NCBI GenBank assembly: GCA_963575745.1
Contig: CAUYUJ010000088.1
Span: forward strand, 1 to 64,000
From: Prorocentrum cordatum
Taxonomy: Eukaryota
Length of the DNA: 64,000 bases
Direction: 5' to 3'
The notes below the pieces were generated by a model, which was not told the DNA's origin, made no database searches, and saw only the letters and a program-made list of their open reading frames with translations. Within the stretch, counting starts at the first letter, position 1. Each line of letters opens with the position of its first letter. Made by a program: the position numbers and the translations under genes. Below are positions 13,688-47,114 of this stretch, in pieces.

Positions 13688-13766
<79 letters not shown>

Positions 13767-13857
13767 CCAAAAAAAACCCACACAAAAAAAACACCACAAA
13801 AAAAAAAAAAAAAAAAACAAAAAAAAAAAACCACACCCACACAAAAAAAACACCACA

Positions 13858-13893
<36 letters not shown>

Positions 13894-13899
13894 ACACTG

Positions 13900-13958
<59 letters not shown>

Positions 13959-13963
13959 TCTCT
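13688..13963. repeat. (TC)n microsatellite, 5' flank of the retrotransposon (with an internal A-rich stretch)
   Basis: Direct observation. Confidence 0.95.
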
Positions 13964-14088
13964 AGTCTCGGCTCGAGAGTGCCCAGCACTCAGACCGCAG
14001 CCGCGACGCGAAGCGCCCCGCCTCGGAGTCAGACTCCCAGGCCTCGCGAGACCGGAGGGGTCCCAGCAGGACCCTACTGATTCGCGTC
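13964..14088 (+). ncRNA. Candidate HDV-like self-cleaving ribozyme (nested double pseudoknot) at the element 5' end
   Basis: Hand-folded: P1 13964-69/14048-53, P2 14005-12/14081-88, P3 14013-15/14045-47, GG 14054-55, P4 14057-63/14069-75, J4/2 A-CUGA 14076-80. L3 is atypically long. Confidence 0.55.
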
Positions 14089-14115
14089 ACCTCTCCTCAC
14101 CAGAGCGCCCGCGCA

Positions 14116-16716
14116 ATGGCCCCCAAGAAGCCGGAGCGCCGTCGCTCTTCTAAGCAGCCTCCGAGTTCCCGTCCCGCGCGCCCTGCTGCCGAAGGGTCTC
14201 TCCTTCAACGCAAGCAGGACTGCGTCGCAGCGTTCAAGCAAGCGGGGTCTGACCGCCCCACGGCCGCATACAACGGGCTTGCCGAACTGAACGCAGACGA
14301 GCTCCAGGCAACGTACGACATGCACAAGTCCAACACGAAGAAGCTTGGCAGCGCCCTGATCCGCATGTGCGCCGCCAACCAGATCAGCTACACGCTTGAT
14401 CACCACCAGCGCAGCAAGCCTAAGCGCAGTGGCGGTGACACATCACACCCACCAGCTGGGTCCGCACGTCTTCAGGCTGCGGACGCCCAATTCATCGCCT
14501 TGGACCCGACCTTTTGGAAGGTCCCTGTCCTCGCCGAACCCACATCTCCTGACGACGGCAAGACGTACAAGCCCAGTATCAGCCTCCACGACTACGAGAG
14601 CGGTGAACGGCTGCTGCAACACCACCTCGAGCAGGGTAAGCGTACCACGGGTCAGCTTGCGATTGCTGTCATGGGCCCAAAAAACGATCACTACGTCGGT
14701 ACCGAGCTCGCCGTCCCCGTGCTGAAGCGTCACCCCAAGGCGCCCAAAGTGGTCCACACGCACGTCCCCGTGACCGTGTACCAGCTGGGCACCAAGGAAG
14801 TCGCCTGCACGGAAAAAGTATCCGTCGCCACCATCGATCCTGCCGACCACGTATGCTGGATTCGGGTGACCATACATGAAACCGAAGCCATTCCAACGAA
14901 CTGCATGAACATCAGGCCTTCGGAGGACCAGTTCTCGGGACGTGCCCCCGGAGGTGCCCCCGTGAACCGTGGTCCACGCGCCAAGGTCCTTTTCCGAGGG
15001 GAACTCCGCTCCCAGGCCAAGGCGGACAAGGCGCGCAAAACCAAAAAGCACACGGAGTCCCAGAAAGACGCCGCCGCCAGTAAGCCTCGATATTCTCTCC
15101 ATACACCTTTCAAGGCCCTCTTCCACGGCAACTTTAAAGCCGTCACCATCCTCGAACCCTGCAAAAGCCTAGGCAGGTATGGATCGGGCGTCGGAAAGAG
15201 GTCACTGGCTGCCACCTTCGGCGTCAGTCTTCAAGCGGTTGACAAGGTCTTGGCGGGTTCAGGGCAACTCGGCGCCACCTACGACCTCAGCAACGTAGGT
15301 GCAGACGAGCCCACTGCAGATAAGTACCAGACCGTGTGGTTCCCTGAGGACCAGCCCATCACGATGGCAGATGCGTTCCAGAAGTCGGTGGATTTCAAGG
15401 CCCTGGGAGTCGTCAGGCACGGCAAGTCAGGCTTATTGGGGATCCGTGTTTCACGGGGGTCAGACGCCGCCAAGGCCGCTGCCGTCAGCATCCGCGGCTG
15501 CGAGGCCACCCTCGCCAAGACGCGCTACCGCATCACTGGCATTGCGGCACGCCACGCCACGCTGACCCAGCTCGCCAAGACTCTCACGGGCCCGTCCGTT
15601 AAATGGGACTGTGAGGTCTACCACACCGCCTGGGACCCAGCCACTTCGGCTCAGTTTGCCTTAGTGCGCGCCCATCGTCCCCCACTCACATATACGGTAC
15701 GGGTCGCAGGGTGCCACATCCCGTGGAGCATCACCGAGGCCCCGCTGGCTGAGGTGGTGCCGAAGAGGGACAACGTTACCATCGTCACGCCTACCACCAT
15801 CACAGAGCCTGTGACGCCGCCAGCCCGTGGTGGCGGCTTCAGCCCCGCCACTGGCACACTCCTCACCAAAGCGGCCCAGAGCCCTAACCTCCACGACCTC
15901 ATGACTGCCACGCCCAAAGGCAAGGGCGTCGCACCGCTCCTGATCCCCAAGGAGGAGCCTTTAGCCAATCGCCACCGATCCTCCAGCGGGAAACGCGACG
16001 CCACGCCGCACGCAAGATCACACGGCGCCCCAGGCCGCAGCTCCTCTGCACCCCCGCACGGCACGGACGGAGCCGCTGAACAGACGGCCGTCCCAGGATC
16101 AGGTGGTCATGACTCTCGGCTTGGCACGGTGGCGGCTGAAGGTGGGGGCCACACCGAAGGGGACGCTGCCACAGCCGCCGAAGTACCAGGCGACGCTGAC
16201 GACGTCGAGATCCTCTCATCAGGCGATGAATACAGCGTGGCTTCCCACGAACTCAACACCTTCGGCGAACGCTTCGCATCGGCCTCTAAACTGCCAGATG
16301 CCGCCACGACCCGCATCCAACACATGGAACAACAGCACGAGCTGCTTGCCAACACGGTGGATAACATGCAGGTTCAGCTTGCGGGCGTTCTCTCCTCCCA
16401 GGCCATACTTACGGAGCACGTCTCAGGTTTGGAACGGGGGCTTGCCACCGTCGTCACCCAGCAACAGACGGCAACCGCCGAAGCCGCTGCACTGCGTGGC
16501 GACATCCAGGCCCTCCTCGGGCACCTCACGGGGGGCACCATCCACCTGCCACAAGTGGCCACTCTGGAAACTAAGAAGGAGGAAGCTGCAGCGGCCGCTG
16601 AACCCGTGGCTGTCTGCGGGTGGATCGACCAGCCAGGCCAGGTCACCCCAGGGACGGGGCCCCCAGGGGCTGACAAAGGCAAAGACAAGGGTCGGGCCAC
16701 CCAGGAACCCTATTGA
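14116..16716 (+). CDS. Retrotransposon ORF1 (866 aa; putative RNA-binding protein with C-terminal coiled coil)
   Basis: Intact ATG-to-TGA ORF ~150 nt inside the element 5' end; basic N-terminus; alpha/beta RRM-like segment RYRITGI...KWDCEV...FALVRA; heptad-like segment RIQHMEQQHELLANTVDNMQVQL...LRGDIQALL. Confidence 0.8.
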   Translation: MAPKKPERRRSSKQPPSSRPARPAAEGSLLQRKQDCVAAFKQAGSDRPTAAYNGLAELNADELQATYDMHKSNTKKLGSALIRMCAANQISYTLDHHQRSKPKRSGGDTSHPPAGSARLQAADAQFIALDPTFWKVPVLAEPTSPDDGKTYKPSISLHDYESGERLLQHHLEQGKRTTGQLAIAVMGPKNDHYVGTELAVPVLKRHPKAPKVVHTHVPVTVYQLGTKEVACTEKVSVATIDPADHVCWIRVTIHETEAIPTNCMNIRPSEDQFSGRAPGGAPVNRGPRAKVLFRGELRSQAKADKARKTKKHTESQKDAAASKPRYSLHTPFKALFHGNFKAVTILEPCKSLGRYGSGVGKRSLAATFGVSLQAVDKVLAGSGQLGATYDLSNVGADEPTADKYQTVWFPEDQPITMADAFQKSVDFKALGVVRHGKSGLLGIRVSRGSDAAKAAAVSIRGCEATLAKTRYRITGIAARHATLTQLAKTLTGPSVKWDCEVYHTAWDPATSAQFALVRAHRPPLTYTVRVAGCHIPWSITEAPLAEVVPKRDNVTIVTPTTITEPVTPPARGGGFSPATGTLLTKAAQSPNLHDLMTATPKGKGVAPLLIPKEEPLANRHRSSSGKRDATPHARSHGAPGRSSSAPPHGTDGAAEQTAVPGSGGHDSRLGTVAAEGGGHTEGDAATAAEVPGDADDVEILSSGDEYSVASHELNTFGERFASASKLPDAATTRIQHMEQQHELLANTVDNMQVQLAGVLSSQAILTEHVSGLERGLATVVTQQQTATAEAAALRGDIQALLGHLTGGTIHLPQVATLETKKEEAAAAAEPVAVCGWIDQPGQVTPGTGPPGADKGKDKGRATQEPY

Positions 16717-16875
16717 AGGTGCCTCAGAGAGCCTGCCTCAGCCCTCCGAGGAAGCGCCTTCAGAGGCATCTCTTCCCTCTCCGCGTCGTATCTCTTTCTT
16801 GTCACCTCATGTCTGTTTTGGCAGCAGTACGCGCAAGCTATCTGGTGTAGGGACACCCGTCATCTTGCAGGGGGC

Positions 16876-19800
16876 GTGATTGTTGCAATGTACGTGAGCA
16901 TGCAGGGGTATTTGAGGATGCGTGCTGACATGCAGCTTTTGGCTTATCGCTCGCGCCGCCCGCCAGGCCTCGCCATCATGTGGCGCCTTGCCTGCAGCCT
17001 GGCCCTCCCCTCGATCGCTGGAGCACACCCGTCTTCAGGCGGTGCGCCCCAGCATGGAGGAGAGTTTTTCCTGCGACACGCTGAACGTGGGACTTTCTTC
17101 TACCTTAACGATGACAGCATCAACAAGCACGATCACTGCACCATTTTGGACCCGATCATGAACAGCACCGCCGCCGCGGGTCCGTGCGGCAACGGAGCGC
17201 TGGGCGCCATCGCAAGCGCATCCACGCCCTCGTCAACTACGACACATGCTTCGCAGTCCACCCCCAGCGTGGCTTCGACCGTTGTGCAGCATATCCTTGA
17301 CGGGGACGTTGACAAAGGCCAGGCACGCAGTGGCGGCTTCAGCCCCGCTGGCGTGCCCCGCTATAGCCCCACGGGTTTCATTACCCCTCTGTGCGCTAGG
17401 GGCGAACCCGAGGAGGACCCCGCTTTCTGGCACCTGATGATGATCCGAGCCCGGCTCATACCGTGCGCTGCGGCGTGGGCACCAGGTGAGGACCACCAGG
17501 ACGTGTTCTGGGCATGGCTCGAGGACTGCGTCCCGTACATCCTGGCGACGCTCCATCTGCCACAGTACGACCACCTTTTCCAGGAGGACTCCGAGGAGAC
17601 AACCGACGCCCTGCGCCAGCGCACCGCGATCGACATGTGCGAGGACATCTGGTATAGAGCGGGCCCCGACAGACAGCGCACAAACCGCAACCTCACTCGT
17701 ATCCAGGGTAGCCGCGAGTATTCCACCCGCTACTTTGGCCTCCTTCTGGAATACCAGGGTGCACGTGCCCAGCTTGTCGGCCCTGAGGCTTTCGCGGCAC
17801 CTTTGCCGCCATACCTCTCACGGGCCCACGCCTTACTACCAAGAGGCCTTCCTCCACCCGACCAAGACGCCCTGGCGTACCTCGCGGATGCGATCCTGCA
17901 CCACCCGACAGACATGCAGCCGCTTGTCGAGGCGGAGCTCGCCGCGGCACCGATTGAACCGCTTAACCCACCACCGCCAGCTGGCCTCGCCCAGCACGCC
18001 ACGGGCGATCAGGCCGCAGACGACCCCGTATCACGGCTGCTCCAGCACATCGCGGCCAGCGACATCAGCGACACACCCCTGGACTCGTTCCACGCGTCGG
18101 ACGATATCAGCAACATATCCCTGGGCTCGGTCCATGTGGACGATAGCCAGGACGACATGGAAACCCAGGATCGCGACGGCACGACACCACCAGGCGACAC
18201 GGCCCAGCGTGACCGTGACAGTGTACCCCACCTAGGGCACACCTCGTCGCACAGCAGTCCGCCTAACAACTCGGCCCAGGCCGACCCCTGCGCACAGCTC
18301 AACGACGCTGAAGGCGCCACTGCCGCCGACGCGACAAGCCATGCCACTGCATCGCCAGCTCATGCCAGCCCGCGCAGTGGCGGCTTCAGCCCCGCTGCAG
18401 CACTGGCTGGACCTGGACATCCCCAGACCGCCATCGACGACGACCCCATCGACGACGAGTACCCAGATGCCAGCGGTTCCCACGAGGCCCAGCACAGCGC
18501 AGCGGCATCACGACACTGTGGCTGCCTCATTTGCCTCTTGGTGGCCACGTACGCCATCGTGATAGCAATGCCGTACAAGGACCAGATCGATGGGTACTTG
18601 CCGACACCGAGCCGAGACCCCAGCTACCGACAACGACGACGACGTGAAGCGGCGGCACCAGGCCCATCTGTGCCCACTACACCCCGACGCACAACGGCAT
18701 ACAACGTCAAGTCCGCATTGTGGGCTACTCTCAAGTGTACCAGCGCCAAACTCAGAGATTTCGTCTCGGGCGGAGCCAGCGCAGTCGGGGTCGGCCTCGG
18801 GGGTTGTCCTGAAATGGGCCAGCGGCAAACTCGGAGCTATTGCCACCTGGCGGAGTGGCGTGCGGTCTTCTACTCGTCGGCGCCAAACTCCTCGCTCAAG
18901 GAGCCGTCGGACACGTAGGAGCCCGCATCTGTGCGCGTGCCCTGGACTCATCCACGGCCCAGTGGTGCCTCCGCTGTTGCCAACCGAGCAGGAGGCCGCG
19001 TGATGAGGCCACATACAAAATGCCGCGCACGCTTGCCGACGAACACGAGGACCAGCACGTGCACTCACTCCGACATCCGCTGCTACAGGAACACTACGCC
19101 GCAGCAGTTGCCGCCGCAGTCGCCGATGTCACCACCGCCACCACCGCCGCCATCGTCGAAGTCACTGCCGCCGTATCGCGAGCCTCGTCTGTCACACCAC
19201 GATCGACCAGCCCGTCCCCGCGAGACGGCTCCAAGAGCGGAGCGGCCTACGGTAACCTACCGACAAACGAAGATGCCACAGCCCACGGCAGTGACACCGA
19301 GGCAAGGGAAACACGTGAGCACACCCATGTTAGCCCGTGGTCCATCTTTCGACATGTTGATGCTCGTGGTTCCTCTACCGACACGGACACCCAACCACCA
19401 CGACGGCGAGCACGCTATGCATCACCCGCCAGGCCCCAGGCGCCTTCAGGCCCTGGTATGCCCTACGCAGCCCTCAAGCCACCGACGCGCAACTTACGCA
19501 ACACTATCCAGCGCGACCCAGCGGTCCCCGTGCCGCCGACGAGCATCCTCAACGCCCTGTACCAAAACGGCTTTGCGCTGGGTAACAGTGGCGTGTCTAC
19601 AGAGGACATCAAAGACGCTCTGCGACTCCACGACCATCCTCGATTCACCCATGATCCAACACTCCAAGCGCTGGTGCCGTGGACTGACATCATGCAGAGG
19701 CCCCCGAACCGCCTCACTTGGGTGCTGGAAGACTCGGGCGGGAACTCAGGCGAGACGATCTTCCCCTACCTCACGTGGGACCTCCGCCAACCCACCACCG

Positions 19801-22800
19801 ACGCGCCCACTGTCTTCTGGCATGGGACCCGCGGCGACCTTGCGGCCCGTCTTGCTGCCAGCGGAGGGCACCTCTTGCCAGGCCCCCGCCGTGAAGCGAA
19901 GGGCCGAACTGGCACCAACGTTGGCCGCACGTACGCGAGCGTGCACCCTTCGCTGGCCGCGTGGTACGCAATGCCGCCCCACCCGCCCTACAGTCTTGAA
20001 GACGACACCCTCGCGTGGGACCCATCGCACTCTGGATGTGCGAGGCCACCCAACCACCGCGCGGGGAAAACAGGCACAACTACGTGAAAGGGGAGGCCCA
20101 CGGAGCGCGCCTCATCTACCCTCGGGTCCTGAGCCTCCTCATCCGCATGGACTGGTGCGCCCCCACAGAAGCTGCCTCCAGGTGCCGTGCCCTACCACAT
20201 GCCTATGGCATGGGCGACTGTGCGCACGCCCTCCACATCGCTGGCTACGATCATCCAGATCTCCGTGAGGCGGCTGAAGCTCACGACCAAGAAGCTAGCA
20301 CCAGGCGCAGGCTGGACATCGCGGCAGCGTGGCCACCGCCGCAGGCACTATACTCGCCAGAGGCAGCGCGAGTATGGGCCAAACAGCACTACGACACTGA
20401 AGCAGCCACCAGGGACGACCCTAACCAGCCCCGCCCACGCGTCTCGCTTCGCAAGCTCCAGCTGGACCCGAAACCACTCATCGACCTGGTGTACACCGGC
20501 TTGCAAGCCGTCCCCGTGCGGGGGCATCCTGACGCACGCGAGTCGCGCCCCAGCGGCTCCAGCCCTGGGGCCGCGTCTGGCCCACCGCGCACTCACAAGT
20601 CAGGCACAGCCCTGGCGCACAGTCCATACCGCTCATCGACGACATCAGGAGCCGACGAACGCCGTACGCCTTCCCTCATCAGCGCGGCCGCCGCCCTCGC
20701 CCGAGGCCACGCCCGCCCACGGCGATCCGCCTCCCGTTCGTCACGGCAGAGTGGCGGACACTCCACCTCGGACAACAGCGACATCGAGACGTGGGAGCAC
20801 ATCGAGACGGAAGAGGAGCCGACTGCCTACCACGTCCTCGCCTACCACGTCCGCGATGTGCGGGCCCGTGTCAATGCCCCTGGCATCGAGGTCTGGCTTG
20901 ACCCTGGCGATCACCACGACGGCGCCTACTTACCGTGGGGGACGACCGTCATGTGCCATCGCGTTATCGACCCTGCGGTGGCGGGGCGCGACGGCTGGGT
21001 CATCCTCCACCACGACCACGGCGACACCACTACCAAGCTCTGGGTACCGACCCAAGTCCACGTCAAAGCGGACGACACTTGGCGCACGGTCATGGTACCA
21101 GCGGACATGGGGCCCCAGTGGATCGAGCGCCATGCCGAGGACGCTCGCCTCCCCGCCGAGGTTGTCCGCACTACAGGCCAATCCTGGTTTGCCGACGTCT
21201 GGCCCTTGTGGGATCGCCCCCGACCTCACCCAGACGACCCAGGCACAAACGAGCATGCGCTCCCGCCTCTACCAGGACGCTGGTCTTGCCTACAGTGTCG
21301 TTTCCAATGCTGTCAGTACTGCGCGGCTCGCCGCAACACGCAGCTCGGCACCTCGGGCCAACCAACGTGCCCAGACTGTGCCCGCAGCGGACTGCGTGCA
21401 CTTATGGACTGGTCCACGGACTACTCTTGCAACAGCTGGACGTGTGCATACAGCACCGACAACAGGGACTCCGACACATGCTGCCTGTCCAGCAGGTGCC
21501 CCCATCCGCCCAGTCCACACAGCCTGCTCGACGTCCGTGCCACAGGGATGCCGCCGCACATCCTTGCCCGCCAATACGGCAACGCGCCAGCCCACCACGA
21601 CATCAAGGAACCCCCCCGAGCGCCTTCAGGCCCCGGGGGGGAACCTCCACAACCAGGCCAAGCAGGTTACCAGGGTCAATGGTACTTCCCACCGAGGCCG
21701 CGGCGCGTCCCCAGGCAGGGACTGCCTGACGGCACGAGGCGGCCACCTGGGTTCACAGGAACGGGGATGCCCGAAGAACCGTCCCCCGACCAACCTCTCT
21801 GGAGGGAAGGCGACGTGCTCTTCGGCCCCCACCAGGCCCTCAAGGAGGAATTCACCTTCAACAAGACGGTCCGCCGACCCTACTCCCTAGCCATCACCAA
21901 CATGTACAGGGACCGTGTCACGGTCAGGACCGTCTGCGAGTCTATCGCCGAGCGCATCCACACTACCCGCACCCGCTGGCGCGATGTGGTACTGTACTGG
22001 GACGCCGAGGGTGGCCCTGGGCCTCAAGCTCTCGACTATGACATGCGACTCTGCGACGCCATGGTGAGCCGTGCCACGACCGAAGCCGAGCTGAACCACG
22101 ACCGCAGCAACCGTGGTAGTTTCTGTCTTTATGGACCAGCGCACCAGCGAGCTGTAAACATCACGGCGCTCTCCGAGCCGCAGAACATCGACTACACGGA
22201 GCATGCGCGGCGATTCTCACCCGTAGGGGAGACCTACCCAGACCATGCCTTCGAGCACGTCTATCGGGGCTGGCAGCGGCCCGACGTGCCCACCATCCTA
22301 CCCGACACCCGCCCCCTCTCGAGAGCTGACCAGCAGCGATATCAACAGCACCAGCAGCGCATTCAGCAGCGCGACCAACGCGACGCAGGTCAGCCGAGCA
22401 CGCCACGCTACCGCTCCCCCGCGCGCGTCCCGACAGGCGGCAGCACGGTGTACGGCGGGGCTGCCGCCTATCACCGTGGCCCCATTGGCGCCAGGCCCGC
22501 GGCGGCTGGAGCAGCCGCCTCCAGCTACGGCCATGCCCCTCACGCCAGGGCGCACCCAGCTGTCATCGGCTACCCGCGTGCACTCGTGCAGGCCCCCCCA
22601 CGGGCCACTTCGCCCGTGCCAGGGTCCACGCGTGCCTGGGGCCACTACCCAGGCCGCCATGACAGCACCCACAGCAACCAGCCCGCAGTGGTAACCCCTG
22701 CGGCTTCAGCCCAGGGGGCTGCAACAAACCGTGGCAGGACAGGGCGCCCTGAAGGATGGCGTGATGCGAACGTGCGTGCTTGGCAACCGCGCCAGCACAC

Positions 22801-23680
22801 GCCCCCGCCAAACGCGGCCGCAGCGCTGCGCCCTGCCCAGGCAAAACCTGCCCCACCTGAGCGGGAGAGGCAGCCGCTCGTCCCGCTCGTCCTCACGTAC
22901 ACTCAGGCGCATCACAGCGCCTCCCCGCGGCACAGCGAGGGAAGCGCCCATCACGTCAGCCCCCGCCCCGACGCTGTCGACCCTGACCAGGCCACAGCCA
23001 CGGCGGAGGGCGGCACAAGCGCCTCCCGCCAGCCCAGACATCACCCTGCGCGGCGCCGATCCGATCCCCGAGCAGGGCGGATTCCGAGCGCGCTAATGCC
23101 CAGGCGACCTCGCCACGCGACCGCCACACGGGCGGGCGCGTCCCGCGCCGCAGGTCCTGCAGCCGCCACAGCCCACGCAAGGCCCCAGGGAGCTCCACGA
23201 GCTCGCCGCCTCGCGAGACTCAGGCTGATGGCCGAGCCCCCGAAGTGGTGCCACGCTTCGGTGCCAGCGTCATCGAACCTGGCCAGGTCGACCTCGAGCC
23301 GACGCCGTCCACGGACCACGAGCTGCCGCTGCCCACCCGCGTGGTCGTCCCCATCGACGAGGCGCCGACCTTCGACCCGTTCAAGAACAAGTACCGCGTC
23401 AAGGACCTTGCGGCGGGTTTCGGCGGCGGCTCACCGCTCTCACCCCAGAGTCGGGGCGGAGCCCCCGCCACCTCAGCCGCTGCCGCGGCAGCGGCGGCCC
23501 CGCGGGGAATCAGCCCTGTCCGCAACGTGGGCCTCACGGCAGCGGGCATGGACGAGGCCCAGCGCCAGGCCTACGACCGTGCTGCTGGAGCTGTTCCACC
23601 AGATGCTGCTCATCAAGATACTGACGGGGCGGGCGCGCCACCGCAGGACGGACCAGCGGTGTCGCGTGCGCAGTATATGT
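16876..23680 (+). pseudogene. Accessory ORF2 of the retrotransposon, broken by frameshifts (pieces 16876..18918, 18840..20087, 20015..~23200, 23245..~23680)
   Basis: Overlapping long + strand ORFs tile the region; they contain hydrophobic segments, an HGT...YAS...WYA ADP-ribosyltransferase-like motif and a Cys cluster. Joining them into one protein is inference. Confidence 0.55.
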
Positions 23681-23955
23681 GCGTGCGTTGTGCCGCTGCC
23701 GCGCCGAGCCGCCGCCGCTGGTTCGCTTTTGCTTTTGTGTGCGGCAGGACGGATCGAGGAGTCGCCTCCCTCTCCCTCTGCTGCCGTCTCACCTCTCCTC
23801 CCCTCGTCCCCTATGGTACTGAAGTGAGGAGGAGTTTTCGAGACAGTTTTACTGACGTTTATGACCCCCCCCTGGCGCAGTGCCGACCATGTCTCGCCTA
23901 TACTTCTGGCCTGACGGCGGCTTCAGCCCCGGCCAAGCTAATCCATAGGAACGCC

Positions 23956-24974
23956 ATGAGCTCCTACTGTGGCCAAGCCTTCTACCTGGGCGAGGGCCAG
24001 GCTGCCCTCCACCGTGCGGGGCGTGCCAACCCCAGCTCCACCGACGGAGACGGGCCAGGTCGCTCCATCCACCTCGTCAGCCTCAACATCACGAGTCTCC
24101 CAGCAAATTGGCCAACTATCACCGCTCTAGGTGTCGACCACAACGCCGCAGTCATAGCACTGCAGGAGACCCGACATGCCAAGCCTACCAGACAAGCCAT
24201 CGCTACCAACGCCGCCAATCCACACCACGGGGGATACCACGCCAGTCTGGGACCTGACCTGGATCTGGCGCGAGCCCAGCGCAGAGCTGCCCACGGCGGC
24301 ACTGACCACACCGTCGTGGGCAACACTGGCGCCTCGGGAGGGGTCGCCATCCTCTCCAAGGATGCCATCGTCGACTCCACTGTCGACGACACTGCGCCCT
24401 GTATCGTCACCCTCAAGGCCAAGAAAAGATGGCACGAGGCCTTCCTCCCGCTCTGCACTCAGCACCGCCGCAGGCGGCGACGAAACAACCACGGGCCCGC
24501 TGGGATCTACATAGCGAGCCTCTACGGGGTTGCTGGAGGAGACAGCACAGATCTTTTTCGGCTCGCTGACTGCGCCGCCGCAAGGGTCGGCTCAGCCCCG
24601 TATTTCATCTGCTGGACGCCAACACGAATATCGACGACAATCCACACCTGCTGCACATGATGCAGCACGGATGGTTTAACGTCGCTGAGGGCACACCAGA
24701 CCACACCATGCACACATACGGCAATATCCCTGACTGGGACCGCGTCACCAAGTGCCCCCGCACTTCGCGCATCGATTACATCATCGCCAACCAAGCGGCG
24801 CGATCCCTTGTCACCGACTTCTGCTATCTGCGAGACTTGCCAGCGAAGTCCCATGTTGGCCTGCAGGTCACGCTCGACCTCAGTCGCCTCGACCATACGG
24901 CCCGACGCCTTCTTGCCCCCACGCCCTACCCCCTAACGATGGAGCTCATGAGGGCCACGAACTGCAGGCATTAG
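23956..24974 (+). pseudogene. Apurinic-like endonuclease (APE/EEP) domain of the retrotransposon, frameshifted
   Basis: LVSLNITSL, VIALQETRH, SGGVAIL, IASLYG, FIC/(G)DAN split by a frameshift at ~24612, SRIDYIIAN, SHVGLQVTL. Confidence 0.88.
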
Positions 24975-25341
24975 GGACCCTCATCGCAGGGCGATACCAG
25001 GACCGCATGGAGCAGGCCGACACACGCGACGATGTGGAACGCATGTTCGCCCTGGCAAACGAGGCCAGCCATGAATGCCATCTCGCCCGTCTGCGCGACC
25101 TGCCACCTCCACCGCCAGACCACCCAAAAAAGAAGCCCCCCACCATGCACGGGCTCACGCCCACGTTCGAGGAGCGACCCGTTGTCCCCCGCGCCTTTCC
25201 CACCTACGGAGCTTCCACGATACACATGAACCGCCTGCGCAAGCTCCATCGGCAACTTTGTGAGCTTCGCTTCATCGGACAGCACCATCATTTAGACTGC
25301 CGTGCCATCCCGCCGTACCTGGCGCAGCGCATCGACTGCAC

Positions 25342-28300
25342 GTGGACCGCGGCCCGCCTCCTCTGTCACAGCTGCGCCCCACGGTTCTCCTGGCCTTTCC
25401 CGAGGCCTGGACCCCCGACGAGCCAGCACCTCACGGAGAGCACCTTGACTGTCTGATCCAAAACCTCGACCCAGAGCTGGCGCGACGTGCAAACCGTGCC
25501 AAAGCTGAACGCATCAAGATATGGGCTGAGGGCGTCCGCGAGCCAAGCGGGCGAAAGGCGGCCATATACGCACGGGCTGCTGACAGCTCGCCCACGGCGT
25601 ATCTCCGCACGCCTACCACTCCCGACGATACACAACTCCACTGCGACACCAACGCCTTTAAACCTGACAAAGCTAGCACGGACGATAGTGACGCCGACAC
25701 CGAAGCTGGCGGCTTCAGCCCCAGCGACGGTAGTTCGCCCGACACGGACAACGACGAAGACCACACTTGTGAACCACCACCTGCACAGGTCCCCGACACC
25801 CTCCCTGCCAACGCCATTGTTGCTAATACCAAAGACATGCTTAAGCTCATGGTCGACACCTGGGAGCCCATCCTGGGCAGGTACCGCGCCCGTGCAGGGC
25901 ATGACGCCGAAGCCATGCCGACGTGGGCTGACTTTTACGACGAGTACCGACAAGAGCTGCCTACGCCATCACCAGCAGCCCCTTTCCACCTCACCGACGA
26001 CCAACTCATCCACTTCATTCGCACCCGTTCACCGCGCCGTGCGGGGGGACTTGACGGCTGGACAACTAAGGAGGCTAAGGAGTTACCCGACAACATCCTT
26101 CGCCTCTTCGCCAGCGTCTTACGCGCTACGCAACGCACTGGCACCATCCCAGAACCCCTCCTTCACGTGCCAAACCCGTGCCTCCGAAAAGGCCGAGGGG
26201 AACTCCCGACGGACCAACGACTTCTCTCGGTGCTTTCCGTTTGGATGTACGCGTGGGAAGCGCCAGCTTACCGCAGCCTCACGGACTGGCGGAAAGGATG
26301 GACCCACGCCACGAGTTTTGGCGCTGTTCCCAAAGCTACCATTGGGGACGTCAGCACCTCTCTCGCCCTGCGCATCGAGCACGCCAGGGCTTTACTCCTG
26401 CCCTTATCTGGGGCTGCCCTTGACCGACAGAAGTGTTTCGACTACCTCATCACGGACATCTGCCTTAACCTTGCGCTCCACGCGGGGTGCCCCCAAGACA
26501 TCGTAACTGTCCGCAGAAACTTCTACAGTCGCCACAAACGCTACATCCGCATGAACGGAGCGTACTCTAAGGAATTGGCCAGGACCAACGGTCACCTCCA
26601 GGGACGCTCATGGTCCCTGGACGACATCAAGCTGCTCATGTGTGTGTGGACAAAGAGACAGCATCGATACGTTCCTCGATCACTCAGCACTACCTTTGTT
26701 GACGACAGCAACTCCACTACCCACACCGCGTCTGAGTTGCAGAAATCTCTTGACGAAACCGCCAAGTTTGATCGATTCTCAGGTCAACGCATTCACCCTG
26801 GCAAAGTGGCGGGGTGGGCGCTCACCGACGAGCTTCACGCCGCCGTTACCCAGTTCACTCTAGCGGAACGGCCCTTACGCGTGGTCGACTCCTTCAAGCT
26901 CGTCGGGAGTTACATCAACGCCGAGGCAGCGCCGTCTCCAGCCGCGCTTAACCTCACGGCCATCGCTGACGCCCGTGTACGGAGGGCGACCAGTCGCCTG
27001 CCGCGCATTGGCAAGCTCCCATCGCCGATGCTTATTAAGGCGCGGCACGCCCGTTCCCTTGCTGCCAGCGTCTGTACCACGGGCACCGACATTCAAGCCC
27101 CATCAGGCCCTGCCAAAATTGCCTACAACCACGCCCTCAAGGCGGCTATCCGCCCCAAGGGGAACAAGCGGGTCGAGTTTTGGACTCTCATGGCCGTGTG
27201 CGTCCCAGGACACGCCCTGGAGATTGACGCCATCACGCAGCGTGAAGCTTTCCTGTGCCTGCGGCGACAGGTTAACCGCGACGTTACACTCTGCGGTCTC
27301 GTCAGGGATCTCCAACACCACGTCCAGACCCTGTTTGGTGGAGGACCTGTCGGACGACTCGTCCAGTCGCTCCAGCAGCTCCGGTGGACCTGGCCCACAT
27401 TTGGCATCATGTACGACGACTGGGGCTGCCAGATCAGCTGGCTGAACTTACCCCAAAACGCCTTCCTTCACATGCTGCGGGCCTCACAACGCAGAGCCTT
27501 TCTACGGAGGATCAAGCCACGGCGTCACGACCTTGGATACCTTGCCTCTGTCAGACAGGGCCTCGACCTCTTCGCCAGCACGTGGCTCGCCCGAACTAGA
27601 GGAGCAGCCAAATGCACTGCCTGGCAGCTGGCGCTCCACCTGAACTACCTGTCGGGCGGGGACCACACCCAACAGCGACGATCCCGATCAAACACGTCAG
27701 CTGACCCCAGCCCCATCTGCCGATACTGCGACGAGGAAGAGGGAACTCAGGAGCACACTGTCCGCGACTGCAAGTGCTGGGCCCGAGAAAGACTCCCTCT
27801 CACCACCCTCATCAGTGACGACCAGTGGGCCCGTCTCCCGCCGCACACAAGACACTGCGGGCTCTTCGACGAAGACCCAGCCCTCCTCGACCTGCAGGCC
27901 GACCTCGCGAGGGACCCGCTACCTCAGCCCATACCGCGGCCCCCCCCTGAGGGAGATCCTGCGGCTTCAGCCCAGGACTCCTACACCACCTACCTTGACC
28001 ACGACACTGGTTGGACATGGGTCTACGCTGCCACGGACGGTGCATGCACCAACCAAGCCATCCCATTGCTAGCACGAGCGGGATACGGCGTCTACTACGG
28101 CATCGACCACCGCATGAACTACAGTGCACGCGTTCACGGCATTACGCAGAACGCACAGCTTGCGGAGACCCTCGCCATTGTTCACCTCACGGCATGTGCT
28201 GAACGGCCCGTACACGTTTTCGTGGACAACCAGGCGGTGGTCGATGGGTTCCAAAGTATCATCGACGGACACTCACCACCGCAGGGCACGCACGTGGAGC

Positions 28301-28490
28301 TCTGGGAAAAGATTCACCGATGCGTCATGGCCAAGCCCAACATGTTCCGCGTCGAGAAAATCGCAAGCCACCTGGGAGACATGGGCATCGACCTCGGGCT
28401 CATCGGGCCCATCGCGGAGGAGTTCAAATCGTCAGGCTGACGCCCTCGCCACAACGGCGGCACGTACTCACAACCTTCCAGACGACATCG
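25342..28490 (+). CDS. Reverse transcriptase + CCHC zinc knuckle + RNase H of the retrotransposon
   Basis: AGGLDGW, LRKG, RLLSVLS, LDRQKCFD (26419), GHLQGRSWS, FVDD (26695-26706), SGQRIHPGK; CRYC-x8-H-x4-C (27718-27771); RNase H TDGAC, AETLA, VDNQ, with the final NRQADALA in the next frame after ~28425. Confidence 0.93.
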
Positions 28491-28623
28491 TCGAAGCTGC
28501 CAAAACACGACATCGCCAAGCGACCGTGCTTCATGGGGTCGCTGTCGCCATCTACGAGCGCAGACACCGCACACTCCCGCTCCCACACCGCAGGGCTGGT
28601 TTACAGCTGCGGAACTCAACAAA

Positions 28624-29784
28624 ATGGAACCAAACCCCCTGCTGTCGGACCAGGCACCACCCGCGGCTGGACCAGACATCCCACAGAACCCGGACGAGCT
28701 CTGGGCCGAGGCCCAATGGGCGATATTCGACGAACAGGAGGACGACCCTTTCGGCTTCGGCGGGGGACTTGACTTCCTAGGCGACGGGCCAGCCAGCGCC
28801 AACCTTGCCCCGTCGGGCATCCGCACGACGCCCTCGACTCCGCCACCGAGAGCGGCACCGCACCCACATGACGACGCCGCTCACCTCCAAGACGCTGACG
28901 AACAGGAAGACGACCCGTTCAGCCTCGGTGGGGGATTGGACGTCCTGGACGACGGCCCAGCCAGCGACAACCCTGCCCCGTCGGGCAACCTCTCGACGCC
29001 TACCGCGACTCCGTCTCCGAGAGCGACATCGCTCCCATATGATGATATCGGTCACCGCCAAGACGCCGACGACGACCTGGGTGACCCCCGCGGACTGAGT
29101 GGCATAGACGACGCACCGCCGACACCCCACGCTGCCGACCATGCCGCCCTTTCGAGACGCCACCCTACTACGCGGATGACCTCAGGGCCCTCGCACGGCA
29201 TCATGATTGGTCCCACCGCGCAAACCACTCCGCCCCCCCACCAGCGGCAGCCCGCGGGGGCGGCTTCAGCCCCCCCGCAGGGCACTGAACCAGGCAGGCC
29301 CTCGCACCCCGTCCACGCTTCCATCGTTGCTGAGCGAGAGGATGCGGCTCTTCCGACCTCTCGGGGCGTGGCCCTAGCGGCTCCAGCCCTGGGGCCGCGT
29401 GCTCCCCTCCAGTCACCTTGCAAGAGTGACGGACGACAGCGTACAGGGTGCCGTACTACGCTAGTCCACCACCTGGACAGGCGTACCGAGGACCTCGCCC
29501 CTGTCACGAGGCCCGCGGCTGCTGGCACTGAACAGCCACCCCGCACCGACCGCGAAACCGAGCTGTCCCAGGCTATGGCCGCTCTCCAGCAGAGGTGTGC
29601 TGCTCTCGCCGCGGACCTCGCTGCCGCTCAAGCCCGCCAAGGCCCTCTACTCCAGCGCCTCCACAGCGCCGGGCGAGCCTTCGCCGAGCTGCTTACGCCC
29701 TCGTCCGATGGTGCCGTGCCGTCACTCACCATCCAAGCTATGCTGTCATCGTTCCGCGGCGCTCCACCTGGTGCCCCGCGCTAA
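28624..29784 (+). CDS. Acidic/proline-rich C-terminal extension (or separate ORF) with terminal coiled coil
   Basis: 386-aa open frame; the homologous frame is also open in the second copy (43212-44036, -). Confidence 0.6.
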   Translation: MEPNPLLSDQAPPAAGPDIPQNPDELWAEAQWAIFDEQEDDPFGFGGGLDFLGDGPASANLAPSGIRTTPSTPPPRAAPHPHDDAAHLQDADEQEDDPFSLGGGLDVLDDGPASDNPAPSGNLSTPTATPSPRATSLPYDDIGHRQDADDDLGDPRGLSGIDDAPPTPHAADHAALSRRHPTTRMTSGPSHGIMIGPTAQTTPPPHQRQPAGAASAPPQGTEPGRPSHPVHASIVAEREDAALPTSRGVALAAPALGPRAPLQSPCKSDGRQRTGCRTTLVHHLDRRTEDLAPVTRPAAAGTEQPPRTDRETELSQAMAALQQRCAALAADLAAAQARQGPLLQRLHSAGRAFAELLTPSSDGAVPSLTIQAMLSSFRGAPPGAPR

Positions 29785-30148
29785 TCTCCTCCTTCCTGCC
29801 TGCCCGTGAGTACGCGTGGCTCCGCGTCCACGGTGCCAGGGCGCGGGGGCGGGGGGTGCCCCGTCACTGCGCGCCGCATTGCGGCCAAGCGCCCAACTGG
29901 CGGTCTGCCAAGCCGCCTAGCCACGTGTCAGCACGTCGCCTTTCTTGTTGGGGCCTCTTTCTTCACGCGGTCTGACAGGTGAGATCATCACCGTCTGTCC
30001 GCCGTCTGTAGCGTCTGTCGCACTGCGCCGGGGGAGGGGTTTTTTGTTGCCCGCCCTCGTATCTAAAGGCTGCACCGCCGCAAATAGTGTTTAGCGAGTT
30101 GTCGCACCGCAGTGCGCTTCGCGGACGGACCCTGGTCCGCCTACTTGT

Positions 30149-30152
<4 letters not shown>

Positions 30153-30205
<53 letters not shown>

Positions 30206-30288
30206 TTTTATTTCTCTCTCTCTCTCTCTTTCTTTCTTTCTCTCTCTCTCTCTCTCTCTCTTTATTTCTCTCTCTCTCTCTCTCTCTT

Positions 30289-30323
<35 letters not shown>

Positions 30324-42844: not shown

Positions 42845-44036
42845 CGGACAAGTAGGCGGACCGGGGTCCGTCCGCGAGGCGCACTGCGGTGCGACAACTC
42901 GCAAAACACTATTTGCGGCGGTGCAGCCTTTAGATACGAGGGCGGGCAACAAAAAACCCCTCCCCCGGCGCAGTGCGACAGACGCTACAGACGGCGGACA
43001 GACGATGATGATCTCACCTGTCAGACCGCGTAAAGAAAGAGGCCCCAACAAGAAAGGCGACGTGCTGACACGTGGCTAGGCGGATTGGCAGACCGCCAGT
43101 TGGGCGCTTGGCCGCTAAGCGGCGCGCAGTGACGGGGCACCCCCCGCCCCCACGCCCTGACACCGTGGACGCGGAGCCACGCGTACACGCGGGCAGGCAG
43201 AAAGGAGGAGATTAGCGCGGGGCACCAGGTGGAGCGCCGCGGAACGATGACAGCATAGCTTGGATGGTGAGTGACGGCACGGCACCATCGGGCGAGGCCG
43301 TGAGCATCTCGGCAAAGGCTCGCCCAGCGCTGTGGAGGCGCTGGAGTAGAGGGCCTTGACGAGCTTGGGCGGCGGCGAGGTCCGCGGCGAGAGCTAAGCA
43401 CCTCTGCTGGAGAGCAGCCATAGCCTGTGACAGCTCGGTTTCGCGGTCGGTGAGGGGCGGCTGCTCAGTGCCAGCAGCCGAGGGCCTCGAGACAGAGGCG
43501 AGGTCCTCGGTACGCCTGTCCAAATGGTGGACTAGCGTAGTGCGGCACCCTGTACGCTGTCGCCCGTCACCCTTGAAGGGTGACTGGAGGGGCCCACGCG
43601 ACCCCAGGGCTGGAGCCGCTAGGGCCACGCCCCGAGAGGTCGGGAGAGCCGCTTCCTCTCGCTCAGCAACGATGGAAGCGTGGATGGGGCACGAGGGCCT
43701 GTCTGGTTTAGTACCCTGCGGGGGGGCTGAAGCCGCCCCCGCGGGCTGCCGGCGGTGGGGGGGCGGAGTGGTTGGCGCGGTGGGACCAGTCATGATGCCG
43801 TGCAAGGGCTCTGAGGTCGGTCGCGTAGAAGGTTGGCGTCTCGGTAGGGCGGCATGGTCGGCAGCGTGTGGCATCGGCGGTGCGTCCTCCATGCCACTCA
43901 GTCCGCGGGGGTCGCCCAGGTCATGGTCGGCGTCTCGGCGGTGGCCGATATCATCGTATGTGGGCGATGTCGCTCTCGGGGACGGAGTCGCAGTAGGGAT
44001 CGAGAGGTGGCCCGACGGGGCGGGGTTTTCGCTGGC
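42845..44036 (-). mobile_element. 5'-truncated copy of the same non-LTR retrotransposon
   Basis: Reverse complement is colinear with ~28960-30151 with scattered substitutions; same 3' terminus (gtccgcctacttgtccg). Confidence 0.95.
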
Positions 44037-45174: not shown

Positions 45175-45640
45175 GGGATCTTCGGAATTCCTCCGGATCC
45201 CTTCGAATTCTTCTGAATTCCTCCGGATTCTTTAGGACTCCTTCGGAATTCCTTGGGCCCCCTTCGGAATTCCTTAGGATTCCGTCGGAATTCCTCCAGA
45301 TTCTTCAAGACTCCTTCGGAATTTCTTTGGACTCCTTCGGAATTCCTTAGGACTCCTTCGGAATTCCTTAGGACTCCTTCGGAATTCTTGTGGATTCTTT
45401 AGGACTCCTTCGGAGTTCCTTGGGGTTCCTTCTGAATTCCTTCGGATTCCTTCGGGATTCCTCAGGATTCTTTCGGAATTCCTTATGATTCCTGCGGAAT
45501 TCCTTAGGATTCCATCGGAATTCCTCAGGGTCCCTTTGGATTCCTCTTTCGGAATTCCTTTGGATTCCTCCTTCGGAATTCCTCTGGATTCCTCCTTCGG
45601 AATTCCTCGGGATTCCTTCGGATTCTTCGGAATTCCTCAG
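45175..45640. repeat. GGAATTCCTTCGGATTCCT-type 10/11-bp alternating tandem repeat
   Basis: Recurrent ggaattcct / ggattcct units. Confidence 0.9.
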
Positions 45641-45645
45641 CCTTC

Positions 45646-45754
45646 CTACGACGACTACTACTACTACTACTACTACTACTACGACTGCTACTACTACTAT
45701 TACTACGACTACTACTACTATTTCTACTACTACAACTACTACTACTACTACTAT

Positions 45755-45804
<50 letters not shown>

Positions 45805-45899
45805 CTACTACTATCACTGCCACTACTACTACTACTACGACTACTACTACTACTACTACTACCACTTACTACTACTACTACCACCACCACCACCACTAT

Positions 45900-45941
<42 letters not shown>

Positions 45942-45965
45942 GACTACTAACAAGATTACGAATTG

Positions 45966-46018
<53 letters not shown>

Positions 46019-46028
46019 ATACTGCGAA

Positions 46029-46082
<54 letters not shown>

Positions 46083-46085
46083 CGC
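45646..46085. repeat. (CTA)n microsatellite
   Basis: Direct observation. Confidence 0.95.
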
Positions 46086-46139
46086 ATAGACCACCCTTCG
46101 GGTGATAAGGAGGCGAGGGGGGGGGGGGGAACACCGTCG

Positions 46140-46740: not shown

Positions 46741-47114
46741 CATCATCACCACCATCATCATCACCATCATCATCATCGTTGTCAACATCATCATCATCAT
46801 CGTCATCATCATCATCACCGACGGGACACCGGCGTGACACCGCGGGGCCCCGGCCGCCCGGAAGGGAATCATTTGGTCCGGCCGCGCCTCAGCCACACGG
46901 GACACCAGCGGGACACCGGCGGGACACCGCGGGGCCCAGGCCGGCTGGAAGGGAATCGTTTGGTCCGGCCGCGCCTCAGCCACAGGAGACTTTCTCTCGC
47001 CCGCCCACGCAGCTTCGCCTCGCCCGCACGCGCGGCACGCACGAACACGAAACCGAAATGGATTTCCCGGTAGGGGGGCTCTCCGTTCCACTTCGATCTC
47101 ACCCCCTCACCTCC

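What the first reader, a model, noticed from the sequence alone, without database searches (positions are those of the whole stretch)
13964..14088. HDV-like ribozyme topology starting exactly at the (TC)n/element junction, with an unusual hairpin inserted in L3
Seen (hand folding): P1 AGUCUC 13964-69 / GAGACC 14048-53, first pair A-C; structured J1/2 (GGCU/AGCC enclosing GAGUGC/GCACUC); P2 GACGCGAA 14005-12 / UUCGCGUC 14081-88; P3 GCG/CGC; L3 begins CCCC and can pair with GG 14054-55 (P1.1); P4 GGGGUCC/GGACCCU; J4/2 A-CUGA. The helix order and the CNRA linker match HDV-family ribozymes, which are established at the 5' ends of R2 and other non-LTR elements. An A+-C pair is isosteric with the usual G-U at the cleavage site. 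The predicted cut (13963/13964) coincides with the end of the TC tract. Atypical: 6-bp P1 and a 23-nt hairpin (14020-42) inside L3. Inference: a variant ribozyme that frees the element RNA from read-through transcripts.
Basis: partly seen in the sequence, partly recalled or inferred. Interest (0 to 1): 0.78.

Follow-up and report, generated by a model that had tools for sequence, protein, structure and literature searches.

The report
Probable variant HDV-like ribozyme on retrotransposon
The first 125 bases of a 16-kb jumping gene that inserts into TC repeats can fold like the self-cutting RNA of hepatitis delta virus and are unusually well conserved, so they probably trim the element's RNA to its exact start, although one loop of the fold is unlike any known active example and cutting has not been shown.

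Summary
The fold is unlikely to be chance. A deliberately lenient HDV descriptor finds one hit in the element's first 200 nt. It starts at the first element base. Only 1 of 3000 dinucleotide shuffles does the same.

The host is a 16.2-kb APE-RT-RNase H non-LTR retrotransposon (13964-30151) sitting in (TC)n. A 5'-truncated second copy lies in the window. An independent copy (L051) has the same 5' junction.

Against L051, positions 14004-14096 show 0 differences in 93 nt, while ORF1 differs at 9.4%. The 5 changes in the region fall in the J1/2 domain: three in a hairpin loop, one G-C to G.U in P1.2, one in the linker. One contig carries a P4 rebuilt by compensatory changes, with J4/2 unchanged.

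Points against: no Rfam hit. L3 is 29 nt and starts with C, not the conserved U. C with G at these positions was inactive in HDV mutagenesis (PMC3386971). P1, P2 and P3 show no covariation. Cleavage is untested.

Verdict: probably a variant HDV-like ribozyme (about 0.55). The main rival is a non-cleaving structured 5' UTR or promoter (about 0.33).

The parts
13894..13963 (+). (TC)n target tract directly upstream of the element; U13963 is the -1 nucleotide of the predicted cut
   Evidence: Sequence. The same tract/junction is seen in L051.
13964..13969 (+). P1 5' strand (AGUCUC); predicted cleavage 5' of A13964, the first base of the element
   Evidence: Only 122 of 127,990 window 6-mers could pair with the P1' strand under the same rule.
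13970..14004 (+). J1/2 with a P1.2-like peripheral helix (13970-75 with 13996-14002, and 13977-82 with 13986-91)
   Evidence: All 5 differences from L051 lie here: three in the hairpin loop 13983-85, C14002U (G-C to G.U), and G14003A in the linker.
14005..14012 (+). P2 5' strand (GACGCGAA)
   Evidence: It is part of the nested MFE. It is invariant in L051.
14013..14015 (+). P3 5' strand (GCG)
14016..14044 (+). L3, 29 nt: CCCC, then a 23-nt hairpin (14020-42), then CU. Atypical length, and no leading U.
   Evidence: Invariant in L051.
14045..14047 (+). P3 3' strand (CGC)
14048..14053 (+). P1 3' strand (GAGACC)
   Evidence: Positions 14049-52 are unpaired in the nested MFE; G14048 and C14053 are paired there.
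14054..14055 (+). GG that can form P1.1 with CC of L3
   Evidence: In the nested MFE these bases instead pair with U14078 and C14077.
14057..14075 (+). P4 hairpin (7 bp, loop CAGCA)
   Evidence: One contig of run X2 has 5 of the 7 pairs changed (4 on both sides, 1 on one side). All 7 still pair, and the loop is unchanged (table 7).
14076..14080 (+). J4/2 ACUGA; C14077 is the predicted catalytic cytosine (CNRA)
   Evidence: Unchanged in the P4-swapped contig and in L051.
14081..14088 (+). P2 3' strand (UUCGCGUC)
   Evidence: The P4-swapped contig has C14083U, which keeps a G.U pair.
13964..30151 (+). Whole non-LTR retrotransposon (about 16.2 kb). The first ATG is at 14116. This copy has in-frame stops and frame shifts.
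30153..30320 (+). (TC)n tract at the 3' junction
42845..44036 (-). 5'-truncated second copy (last 1192 nt, 92.8% identical), also lying in (TC)n/(GA)n

Best explanation
[quoted passage not shown] They fold into an HDV-like nested double pseudoknot that cuts itself 5' of A13964. Copies sit in TC microsatellites, sometimes head-to-tail, so they can be transcribed as part of longer read-through RNAs. The ribozyme would then release the element RNA with a defined 5' end, as in R2, R4/Dong, Baggins, RTE and L1Tc.

C14077 in J4/2 would be the general acid. The structured J1/2 (P1.2) would hold P1 and P2 together. The first bases after the cut (AG-UCUC) resemble the target repeat. This could help the cDNA end anneal to the target and give uniform 5' junctions.

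Shown: the topology and its statistical rarity, conservation of the core, compensatory change in P4, and an identical junction in a second copy.

Inferred: self-cleavage, the role of C14077, activity despite the atypical L3 and the A.C cleavage-site pair, and co-transcription.
For: 1. All helices are present. The lenient descriptor gives one hit in the first 200 nt, starting at element base 1. Of 3000 shuffles, 48 have any hit and 1 has a hit at position 1. The window has 50 sites per 128,000 positions, and this one ranks first of the 51 hits.
2. Even if the nested fold is taken as given, only 122 of 127,990 window 6-mers could pair with P1'.
3. The nested MFE already holds P1.2, P2, the L3 hairpin and P4, and leaves most of both P1 strands free. 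The HDV-type nested part scores -53.7 against an MFE of -59.1 kcal/mol. The P1 duplex scores -6.0.
4. L051 is an independent copy with the identical ctct|AGTCTC junction. It lies about 90 nt of (TC)n behind the 3' end of another copy, and the descriptor's only hit in L051 is at that junction.
5. Window versus L051 shows 0 differences in 14004-14096 (93 nt) and 5 in 13964-14003. ORF1 differs at 139 of 1475 positions.
6. In three DNA runs, no variant of 10% or more is listed in 13970-14096, while 40 rows are listed for 14097-14730; 20 further rows were not shown.
7. One X2 contig has a P4 rebuilt by compensatory changes, with the loop, J4/2 and flanks unchanged.
8. The host is a non-LTR element. 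The RT profile matches LINE-1 ORF2p at E 1.1e-19, R2 at 3e-17 and RNase H1 at 2.5e-8.
9. Literature: 5'-end HDV-like ribozymes occur in R2, R4, Dong, Baggins, L1Tc and RTE, and P1 of 6-7 bp is normal in R2 (PMC3774820, sections 12, 16 and 18 read). A structured J1/2 activates large HDV-like ribozymes (PMC4908430, passages read). U at -1 is the best HDV leader nucleotide (PMC1874588, abstract start seen only in the listing).
Against: - No Rfam family matches at gathering score in the window. No HDV-clan model matches at E up to 10 in 13850-14250; the 3 matches there are unrelated.
- L3 is 29 nt with an internal hairpin. I know of no active HDV-like ribozyme with this, and one search (listing only) showed none.
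- L3 starts with C where HDV has the U of the U.G trans pair. In antigenomic HDV only 5 of the 16 combinations at these two positions cleaved. C/G was not among them, and the four active mutants were 232- to 528-fold slower (PMC3386971).
- The cleavage-site pair is A.C, not G.U.
- P1, P2 and P3 show no variation, so they have no covariation support. C14083U fits P2 and the competing hairpin (14045-50 with 14081-86) equally well.
- The MFE pairs C14077 with G14055.
If these lie upstream they would span the cut site. The tool masked 13930-13969, and DNA carry-over cannot be excluded.
Confidence: 0.55

Rival explanations
1. A conserved, structured 5' UTR that does not cut itself. The RNA start at A13964 would be set by transcription initiation from an internal promoter. 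The helices would serve translation start, binding of the element's proteins, or protection of the 5' end. The HDV-like look would then be partial convergence, or a ribozyme that has lost activity but kept another role.
For: - The junction sequence CTAGTCT fits the initiator consensus YYANWYY with A13964 as +1. The consensus is recalled; the sequence is.
- Internal 5' UTR promoters are usual in non-LTR elements, and in L1Tc the same 77 nt are both promoter and ribozyme (PMC3383444, abstract start seen in the listing).
- L3 departs from the conserved U.G, and C/G was inactive in HDV.
- There is no Rfam hit.
- Conservation and P4 covariation fit any functional RNA.
- The nested MFE explains most helices without pseudoknots.
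Against: - It does not explain why the first 6 nt of the element are complementary to the 6 nt directly after P3' (about 1 in 1000 per position).
- It does not explain why CNRA sits directly before P2', or why the two bases after P1' can pair with the start of L3. Together these features occur at position 1 in 1 of 3000 shuffles.
- A promoter acting as DNA would not select compensatory changes in P4.
Confidence: 0.33
2. Chance resemblance. A GC-rich 5' UTR happens to allow an HDV-like drawing, and the reader's hand-folding picked it out.
For: - The descriptor had to be widened (L3 up to 35 nt, A.C first pair) to include the candidate.
- That descriptor finds 50 sites in the window.
- The sequence motif pattern alone gave 50 unrelated metagenome matches.
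Against: - One of 3000 shuffles gives a hit at position 1, and 2 of 3000 give a hit anywhere with P2 of 8 bp or more.
- The candidate is the best of the 51 window hits and the only one with a 7-bp P4 together with an 8-bp P2.
- The region is invariant while the ORF diverges by 9.4%.
- P4 shows compensatory change.
Confidence: 0.05

Closest known systems
HDV-like ribozymes at the 5' ends of site-specific non-LTR retrotransposons (R2, R4, and Dong, which Eickbush et al. place in the R4 lineage)
   Same: - It sits at the very 5' end of a target-specific non-LTR element.
- The helix order is the same.
- P1 is 6 bp, within the R2 range of 6-7 bp.
- P3 is 3 bp and P1.1 is 2 bp.
- J1/2 is long and P4 is variable.
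- The catalytic C lies in J4/2.
- Cleavage is predicted at the element junction, as reported for Drosophila R2, R4 and Dong (PMC3774820, sections 12, 16 and 18 and passages read).
   Different: - The host has an APE-type endonuclease plus RNase H. R2 and R4 have a restriction-like endonuclease (recalled).
- The target is (TC)n.
- L3 is 29 nt with a hairpin and lacks the leading U.
- The cleavage-site pair is A.C.
- There is no experimental cleavage.
L1Tc ribozyme (L1TcRz/Pr77) of Trypanosoma cruzi
   Same: - It is an HDV-like fold in the first nucleotides of an APE-RT-RNase H non-LTR element of a protist.
- The region may serve as both internal promoter and ribozyme.
- It releases the element from longer transcripts (PMC3185411 passages read; PMC6765202 passages read).
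   Different: - L1TcRz is 77 nt with a 1-2 bp P1.1 and was shown active in vitro.
- The present fold is 125 nt with a structured J1/2 and an L3 hairpin, and it is untested.
- I detected no sequence similarity between the two (no Rfam hit).
Large HDV-like ribozymes with a P1.2 peripheral domain (for example drz-Agam-2)
   Same: A helix within J1/2 begins right after P1 and ends 2 nt before P2. This is the geometry shown to speed cleavage by pinching P1 and P2 together (PMC4908430, passages read).
   Different: Those ribozymes have a canonical short L3, as I recall; the passages I read do not state this.

Membership tests
HDV-like self-cleaving ribozymes | Nested double-pseudoknot helix order P1-P2-P3-P3'-P1'-P4-P4'-P2', with P3' abutting P1' and P2 abutting P3 | tested here: met
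   Sequence. There is a single descriptor hit in the first 200 nt. The same single hit occurs in L051.
HDV-like self-cleaving ribozymes | P1 of about 6-7 bp whose first nucleotide is the cleavage site, usually with a G.U wobble there | tested here: inconclusive
   P1 has 6 positions: 5 Watson-Crick pairs plus A13964.C14053. The length is within the R2 range (PMC3774820, section 16). G.U is replaced by A.C. That protonated A.C is isosteric with G.U is recalled, not tested here.
HDV-like self-cleaving ribozymes | Short L3 (about 7-8 nt) carrying the conserved U...G trans pair and the C's of P1.1 | tested here: not met
   L3 is 29 nt (14016-44). It begins CCCC-G and holds a 23-nt hairpin. There is no U at the first position. 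In antigenomic HDV, C/G at these two positions was not among the 5 active combinations of 16 (PMC3386971). The C's for P1.1 and a G at the fifth position are present.
HDV-like self-cleaving ribozymes | P1.1 of 1-2 bp between L3 and the bases after P1' | tested here: met
   CC in 14016-19 can pair with G14054 and G14055. This shows pairing potential only. The MFE pairs these G's with U14078 and C14077 instead.
HDV-like self-cleaving ribozymes | Catalytic C in J4/2 (C-N-R-A directly before P2') | tested here: met
   C14077-U-G-A14080 lies directly before U14081. It is unchanged in L051 and in the P4-swapped contig.
HDV-like self-cleaving ribozymes | Match to a curated HDV-family covariance model | tested here: not met
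   There are 0 matches at gathering score in 64 kb. No HDV-clan match appears at E up to 10 in 13850-14250. HDV-like ribozymes are often missed by sequence models, so this is weak evidence.
HDV-like self-cleaving ribozymes | Covariation supporting the helices | tested here: inconclusive
   In P4, 5 of 7 pairs are changed and all 7 still pair, in one contig. In P1.2, one G-C becomes G.U. P1, P2 and P3 show no variation in the window, in L051 or in the listed variants. C14083U keeps a pair in both P2 and the rival hairpin.
HDV-like self-cleaving ribozymes | Mg-dependent self-cleavage leaving a 5'-OH at the first P1 base | not testable with these tools
   The runs were held as contigs only, and contigs cannot show RNA ends.
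Non-LTR (LINE) retrotransposon, APE-RT-RNase H type, target-specific | LINE-type reverse transcriptase | tested here: met
   Pfam RVT_1 is only E 0.092 on the window protein. A 7-sequence family profile hits LINE-1 ORF2p at 1.1e-19 and R2 RT at 3e-17.
Non-LTR (LINE) retrotransposon, APE-RT-RNase H type, target-specific | APE endonuclease upstream of RT, and RNase H downstream | tested here: met
   Exo_endo_phos scores E 5.5e-5 at 23.5 bits, just under the 24.5 cut-off. One relative scores 1.8e-12. RNase H1 scores E 2.5e-8 by profile, and 3 of 7 members match Pfam RNase_H.
Non-LTR (LINE) retrotransposon, APE-RT-RNase H type, target-specific | 5'-truncated copies and a constant target sequence at the junctions | tested here: met
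   The copy at 42845-44036 (-) keeps only the last 1192 nt. (TC)n flanks the 5' and 3' ends of the full copy, the 3' end of the truncated copy, and both element ends in L051.

The most novel reading that the evidence does not exclude
An active ribozyme with the HDV fold but a rebuilt active site. Both wobble pairs that shape the metal pocket in HDV are replaced: the G.U at the cleavage site becomes A.C, and the U of the L3 U.G trans pair becomes C. L3 also carries a 23-nt hairpin. Such a ribozyme would probably depend differently on pH and metal ions. It would show that L3, so far the most rigid part of the family, tolerates a whole inserted domain. Descriptor searches that require a short L3 would then be missing a class of retrotransposon ribozymes in protists.
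Probability: 0.3. Interest if true: 0.75.

Novelty: new variant of a known kind. Interest (0 to 1): 0.55.

Why it matters
HDV-like ribozymes are known to process several non-LTR retrotransposons. Known examples share a short, nearly invariant L3.

If this RNA cleaves, it extends the family in four ways:
- to a very high-copy, 16-kb, microsatellite-targeting LINE of a GC-rich organism whose element turns up in aquatic, mainly marine and estuarine, metagenome runs;
- to an APE-type element;
- to a fold with an L3 domain insertion;
- to an A.C cleavage-site pair.

It would also argue for widening structure descriptors.

If it does not cleave, it is a clean natural case of an HDV-like pseudoknot kept for another purpose. 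That bears on how these folds arise and decay.

Tried and rejected
- **Whole genome:** none is held for this window. Earlier scan notes hold nothing for this genome or sequence.
- **Protein-guided search for related 5' ends:**
  - ORF1 N-terminus in viral contigs: none.
  - ORF1 N-terminus in metagenome contigs: 67 pattern matches, 0 confirmed.
  - Genome contigs: 148 pattern matches, 1 confirmed, which is L051. The MAG behind L051 holds only that one copy.
- **Core-motif DNA pattern:**
  - It gave 50 metagenome loci and 1 viral locus.
  - None of these 51 is similar to the element by blastn. My first script for this check ended in an index error on empty output.
- **Translated 5' UTR in the protein collection:** the 8 ORF1 relatives all start at the ATG. 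No shorter protein shares words with the UTR translation.
- **Canonical short-L3 alternative:** the descriptor allows L3 of 5-35 nt and found only the 29-nt solution.
- **Idea that GGUCUC at the 3' junction (30151-56) pairs with P1' to define the 3' end:** rejected. The base before UCUC differs in all three 3' ends: G, A and C.
- **RNA run X16:** 3 contigs cover 13970-14150, but contigs show neither ends nor transcription.
- **Papers not held:** Webb 2009, Ruminski 2011, and Webb and Luptak 2011. The published descriptor and the full list of LINE ribozymes could therefore not be checked.

Full report
**What is there**

The window is GC-rich eukaryote-like DNA, full of microsatellites. Positions 13964 to 30151 on the + strand form one long element, bounded on both sides by (TC)n.

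Its reading frames carry three relevant domains:
- A weak APE endonuclease match: Pfam Exo_endo_phos, E 5.5e-5, 23.5 bits against a cut-off of 24.5.
- A reverse transcriptase that Pfam barely sees on the single sequence (RVT_1, E 0.092). A profile of the protein with its six database relatives matches it to LINE-1 ORF2p (E 1.1e-19) and R2 RT (E 3e-17).
- An RNase H, matched by the same profile at E 2.5e-8.

Among the 7 aligned proteins, 3 match Pfam RNase_H, 2 match RVT_1, 2 match zf-RVT and 1 matches Exo_endo_phos.

A second copy on the minus strand (42845-44036) keeps only the last 1192 nt at 92.8% identity. It also lies in a TC/GA tract. The host is therefore a (TC)n-targeting APE-RT-RNase H non-LTR retrotransposon that makes 5'-truncated copies.

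The copy in the window has in-frame stops and frame changes, so it may itself be dead. The first ATG is at 14116. No ATG lies in the 152-nt leader.

**The observation**

They are itemised in the observation check.

To ask whether this exceeds chance, I wrote a descriptor wide enough to accept the candidate's oddities:
- P1 of 6-7 bp, with the first pair any pairable combination or A.C;
- a 3-bp P3 directly before P1';
- L3 of 5-35 nt;
- a 2-bp P1.1;
- C-N-R-A directly before P2';
- P2 of at least 5 bp.

Results:
- Over both strands of the window it finds 51 hits at 50 sites in 128,000 positions. Six have P2 of 8 bp or more.
- Of 3000 dinucleotide shuffles of the 200 nt, 48 have any hit, 2 have one with P2 of 8 bp or more, and 1 has a hit at position 1.
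- Among the 51 window hits the candidate ranks first when P2, P4 and a J1/2 helix are summed. It is the only hit with a 7-bp P4 together with an 8-bp P2.
- If the nested helices are taken as given, only 122 of 127,990 window 6-mers could pair with the P1' strand.

**Energetics**

The nested MFE of 13964-14096 is -59.1 kcal/mol. It contains the J1/2 helix, the full 8-bp P2, the L3 hairpin, P4 and a P3 shifted by one base. It leaves 13964-68 and 14049-52, which are most of the two P1 strands, single-stranded.

The HDV-type nested part without P1 scores -53.7 kcal/mol, and the P1 duplex scores -6.0. The pseudoknot is therefore competitive with the best plain fold.

That plain fold differs mainly by a 3-bp extension under P4, which pairs C14077 with G14055. 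On the shorter 13964-14088 stretch, a rival hairpin pairs 14045-50 with 14081-86 (z = -2.5; 3 of 200 shuffles fold as well).

**Relatives**

No genome is held for the window. One scan of prokaryotic genome contigs found a single related contig, L051, 1818 nt, in a MAG. From its content it is eukaryotic DNA.

L051 holds three things in order:
- the last about 130 nt of one element copy;
- about 90 nt of (TC)n;
- the 5' end of another copy, beginning at the identical ctct|AGTCTC junction.

The 5' end is therefore precise in 2 of 2 full 5' ends seen. Head-to-tail copies exist, which makes read-through co-transcripts plausible.

Window and L051 compare as follows:
- ORF1 differs at 139 of 1475 positions (9.4%).
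- 13964-14096 differs at only 5 of 133 positions.
- All five lie in J1/2: three in the hairpin loop 13983-85; C14002U, which turns a G-C pair of the J1/2 helix into G.U; and G14003A in the linker, which breaks a pair found only in the plain MFE.
- From 14004 to 14096 there are 0 differences in 93 nt. About 9 would be expected at the ORF rate.

**Sequencing runs**

Public-run contigs of three DNA runs and one RNA run were laid on 13930-14800.
- The element is very abundant. Summed word depths reach the thousands to tens of thousands in two of the three DNA runs.
- No variant at 10% or more is listed anywhere in 13970-14096.
- 40 rows are listed for 14097-14730, starting with a site (14097) that shows all three other bases plus an insertion. 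Twenty further rows were not shown, so the contrast is strong but not absolute.
- One contig of run X2 leaves the reference after 14056. Its next 30 letters give a P4 in which 5 of the 7 pairs are changed: 4 on both sides, and 1 from G.U to A-U. All 7 still pair.
- In that contig the loop CAGCA and J4/2 ACUGA are unchanged. P2' carries C14083U, which keeps a G.U pair.

This is good evidence that P4 exists as an RNA helix and that the unpaired core bases are under constraint. It rests on a single contig. It does not separate P2 from the rival hairpin.

**What speaks against a true ribozyme**

- Rfam gives nothing at gathering score. At E up to 10 around the site it gives only three unrelated matches.
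- The larger problem is L3. In HDV and its relatives it is short. It carries a U and a G that form a trans pair lining the metal site, and both are present in all 508 natural HDV sequences. In antigenomic HDV, 5 of the 16 combinations at these two positions cleaved: the wild-type U/G plus four mutants that were 232- to 528-fold slower. C/G was not among them (PMC3386971, passages read).
- R2 ribozymes keep a conserved C and G in L3, and a G-to-A change there killed one R2 ribozyme (PMC3774820, section 12).
- Here L3 is 29 nt, starts with C, has G at its fifth position and holds a 23-nt hairpin. Read through the HDV rules, that predicts poor or no activity.
- P1, P2 and P3 never vary in the data I could reach, so they are neither supported nor contradicted by covariation.
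- Two 61-nt contigs from the poly(A) RNA run each carry 15 nt beyond 13970 that the tool masked as repeat. If these lie upstream they span the cut site. The cause could be uncleaved precursor or DNA carry-over, and I cannot tell which.

**Weighing**

Known 5'-end HDV-like ribozymes in non-LTR elements are R2, R4, Dong, Baggins, RTE and L1Tc (PMC3774820; PMC6765202, passages read). They make the hypothesis natural for a target-specific element that sits in tandem.

Three features match what that family shows: P1 of 6 bp, a long structured J1/2, and a variable P4 (PMC3774820, section 16; PMC4908430).

The joint occurrence of five features is hard to get by chance:
- P1 at base 1;
- P3 abutting P1';
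- P1.1 potential;
- CNRA abutting P2';
- a core more conserved than the coding sequence.

A plain promoter or hairpin model does not explain this either. The non-canonical L3 is a serious, tested departure.

My estimates:
- about 0.55 that this RNA self-cleaves as an L3-variant HDV-like ribozyme;
- about 0.33 that it is a conserved pseudoknotted or hairpin leader without cleavage, with the 5' end set by initiation at A13964 (CTAGTCT fits the recalled initiator consensus YYANWYY), possibly a former ribozyme kept for translation or protein binding;
- about 0.05 that it is chance;
- the rest unassigned.

**Comparison and novelty**

In function it would work like the R2/R4/Dong and L1Tc ribozymes. 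As a member of the HDV-like family it meets the topology, P3, P1.1 and catalytic-C criteria. It fails the L3 criterion and the Rfam test.

I file it as a possible new variant of a known kind, not as an established member.

I did not find an L3-insertion precedent in one literature search (listing only). The three key descriptor papers were not held, so I cannot say it is unreported.

Noticed in passing
window 14116-24000: About 10 kb of open reading frame lies upstream of the endonuclease domain. Frame 1 runs 13966-20268 with two in-frame stops (TGA at 16714, TAG at 18916), followed by 20000-23827. None of it has a Pfam match at E below 0.01. At 16.2 kb the element is unusually large for a non-LTR retrotransposon.
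   Followed up: partly
window 13765-13893: An A-rich stretch of about 130 nt (runs of A with scattered C) splits the upstream TC tract into two parts. It looks like the poly(A)-type tail of another retroelement, or a separate microsatellite.
   Followed up: no
window 14097 and 14111-14112: Conservation ends abruptly 8 nt after P2'. Position 14097 shows all three alternative bases plus a CC insertion in the runs. Positions 14111-12 carry single-base insertions, also seen in L051.
   Followed up: partly
window 30148-30153; 42845 (-); L051:128-134: The element's 3' end is ...CUUGUCCG, followed by one variable base (G, C or A in the three copies) and then (TC)n. There is no poly(A) tail. This suggests priming of reverse transcription by annealing of a terminal UC repeat to the target.
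   Followed up: partly
L051 (whole contig): A contig binned in a bacterial MAG consists entirely of this eukaryotic retrotransposon and TC repeats. It is likely a binning contaminant.
   Followed up: partly
window 45500-49800 and 59500-61100: There are long arrays of trinucleotide repeats: CTA/GTA-type and related units of 9-12 nt periodicity. GC content falls to 0.37-0.44 in these arrays.
   Followed up: no
window 28729-29072: A tandem duplication of about 170 nt (81% identical) lies inside the element's last ORF region.
   Followed up: no
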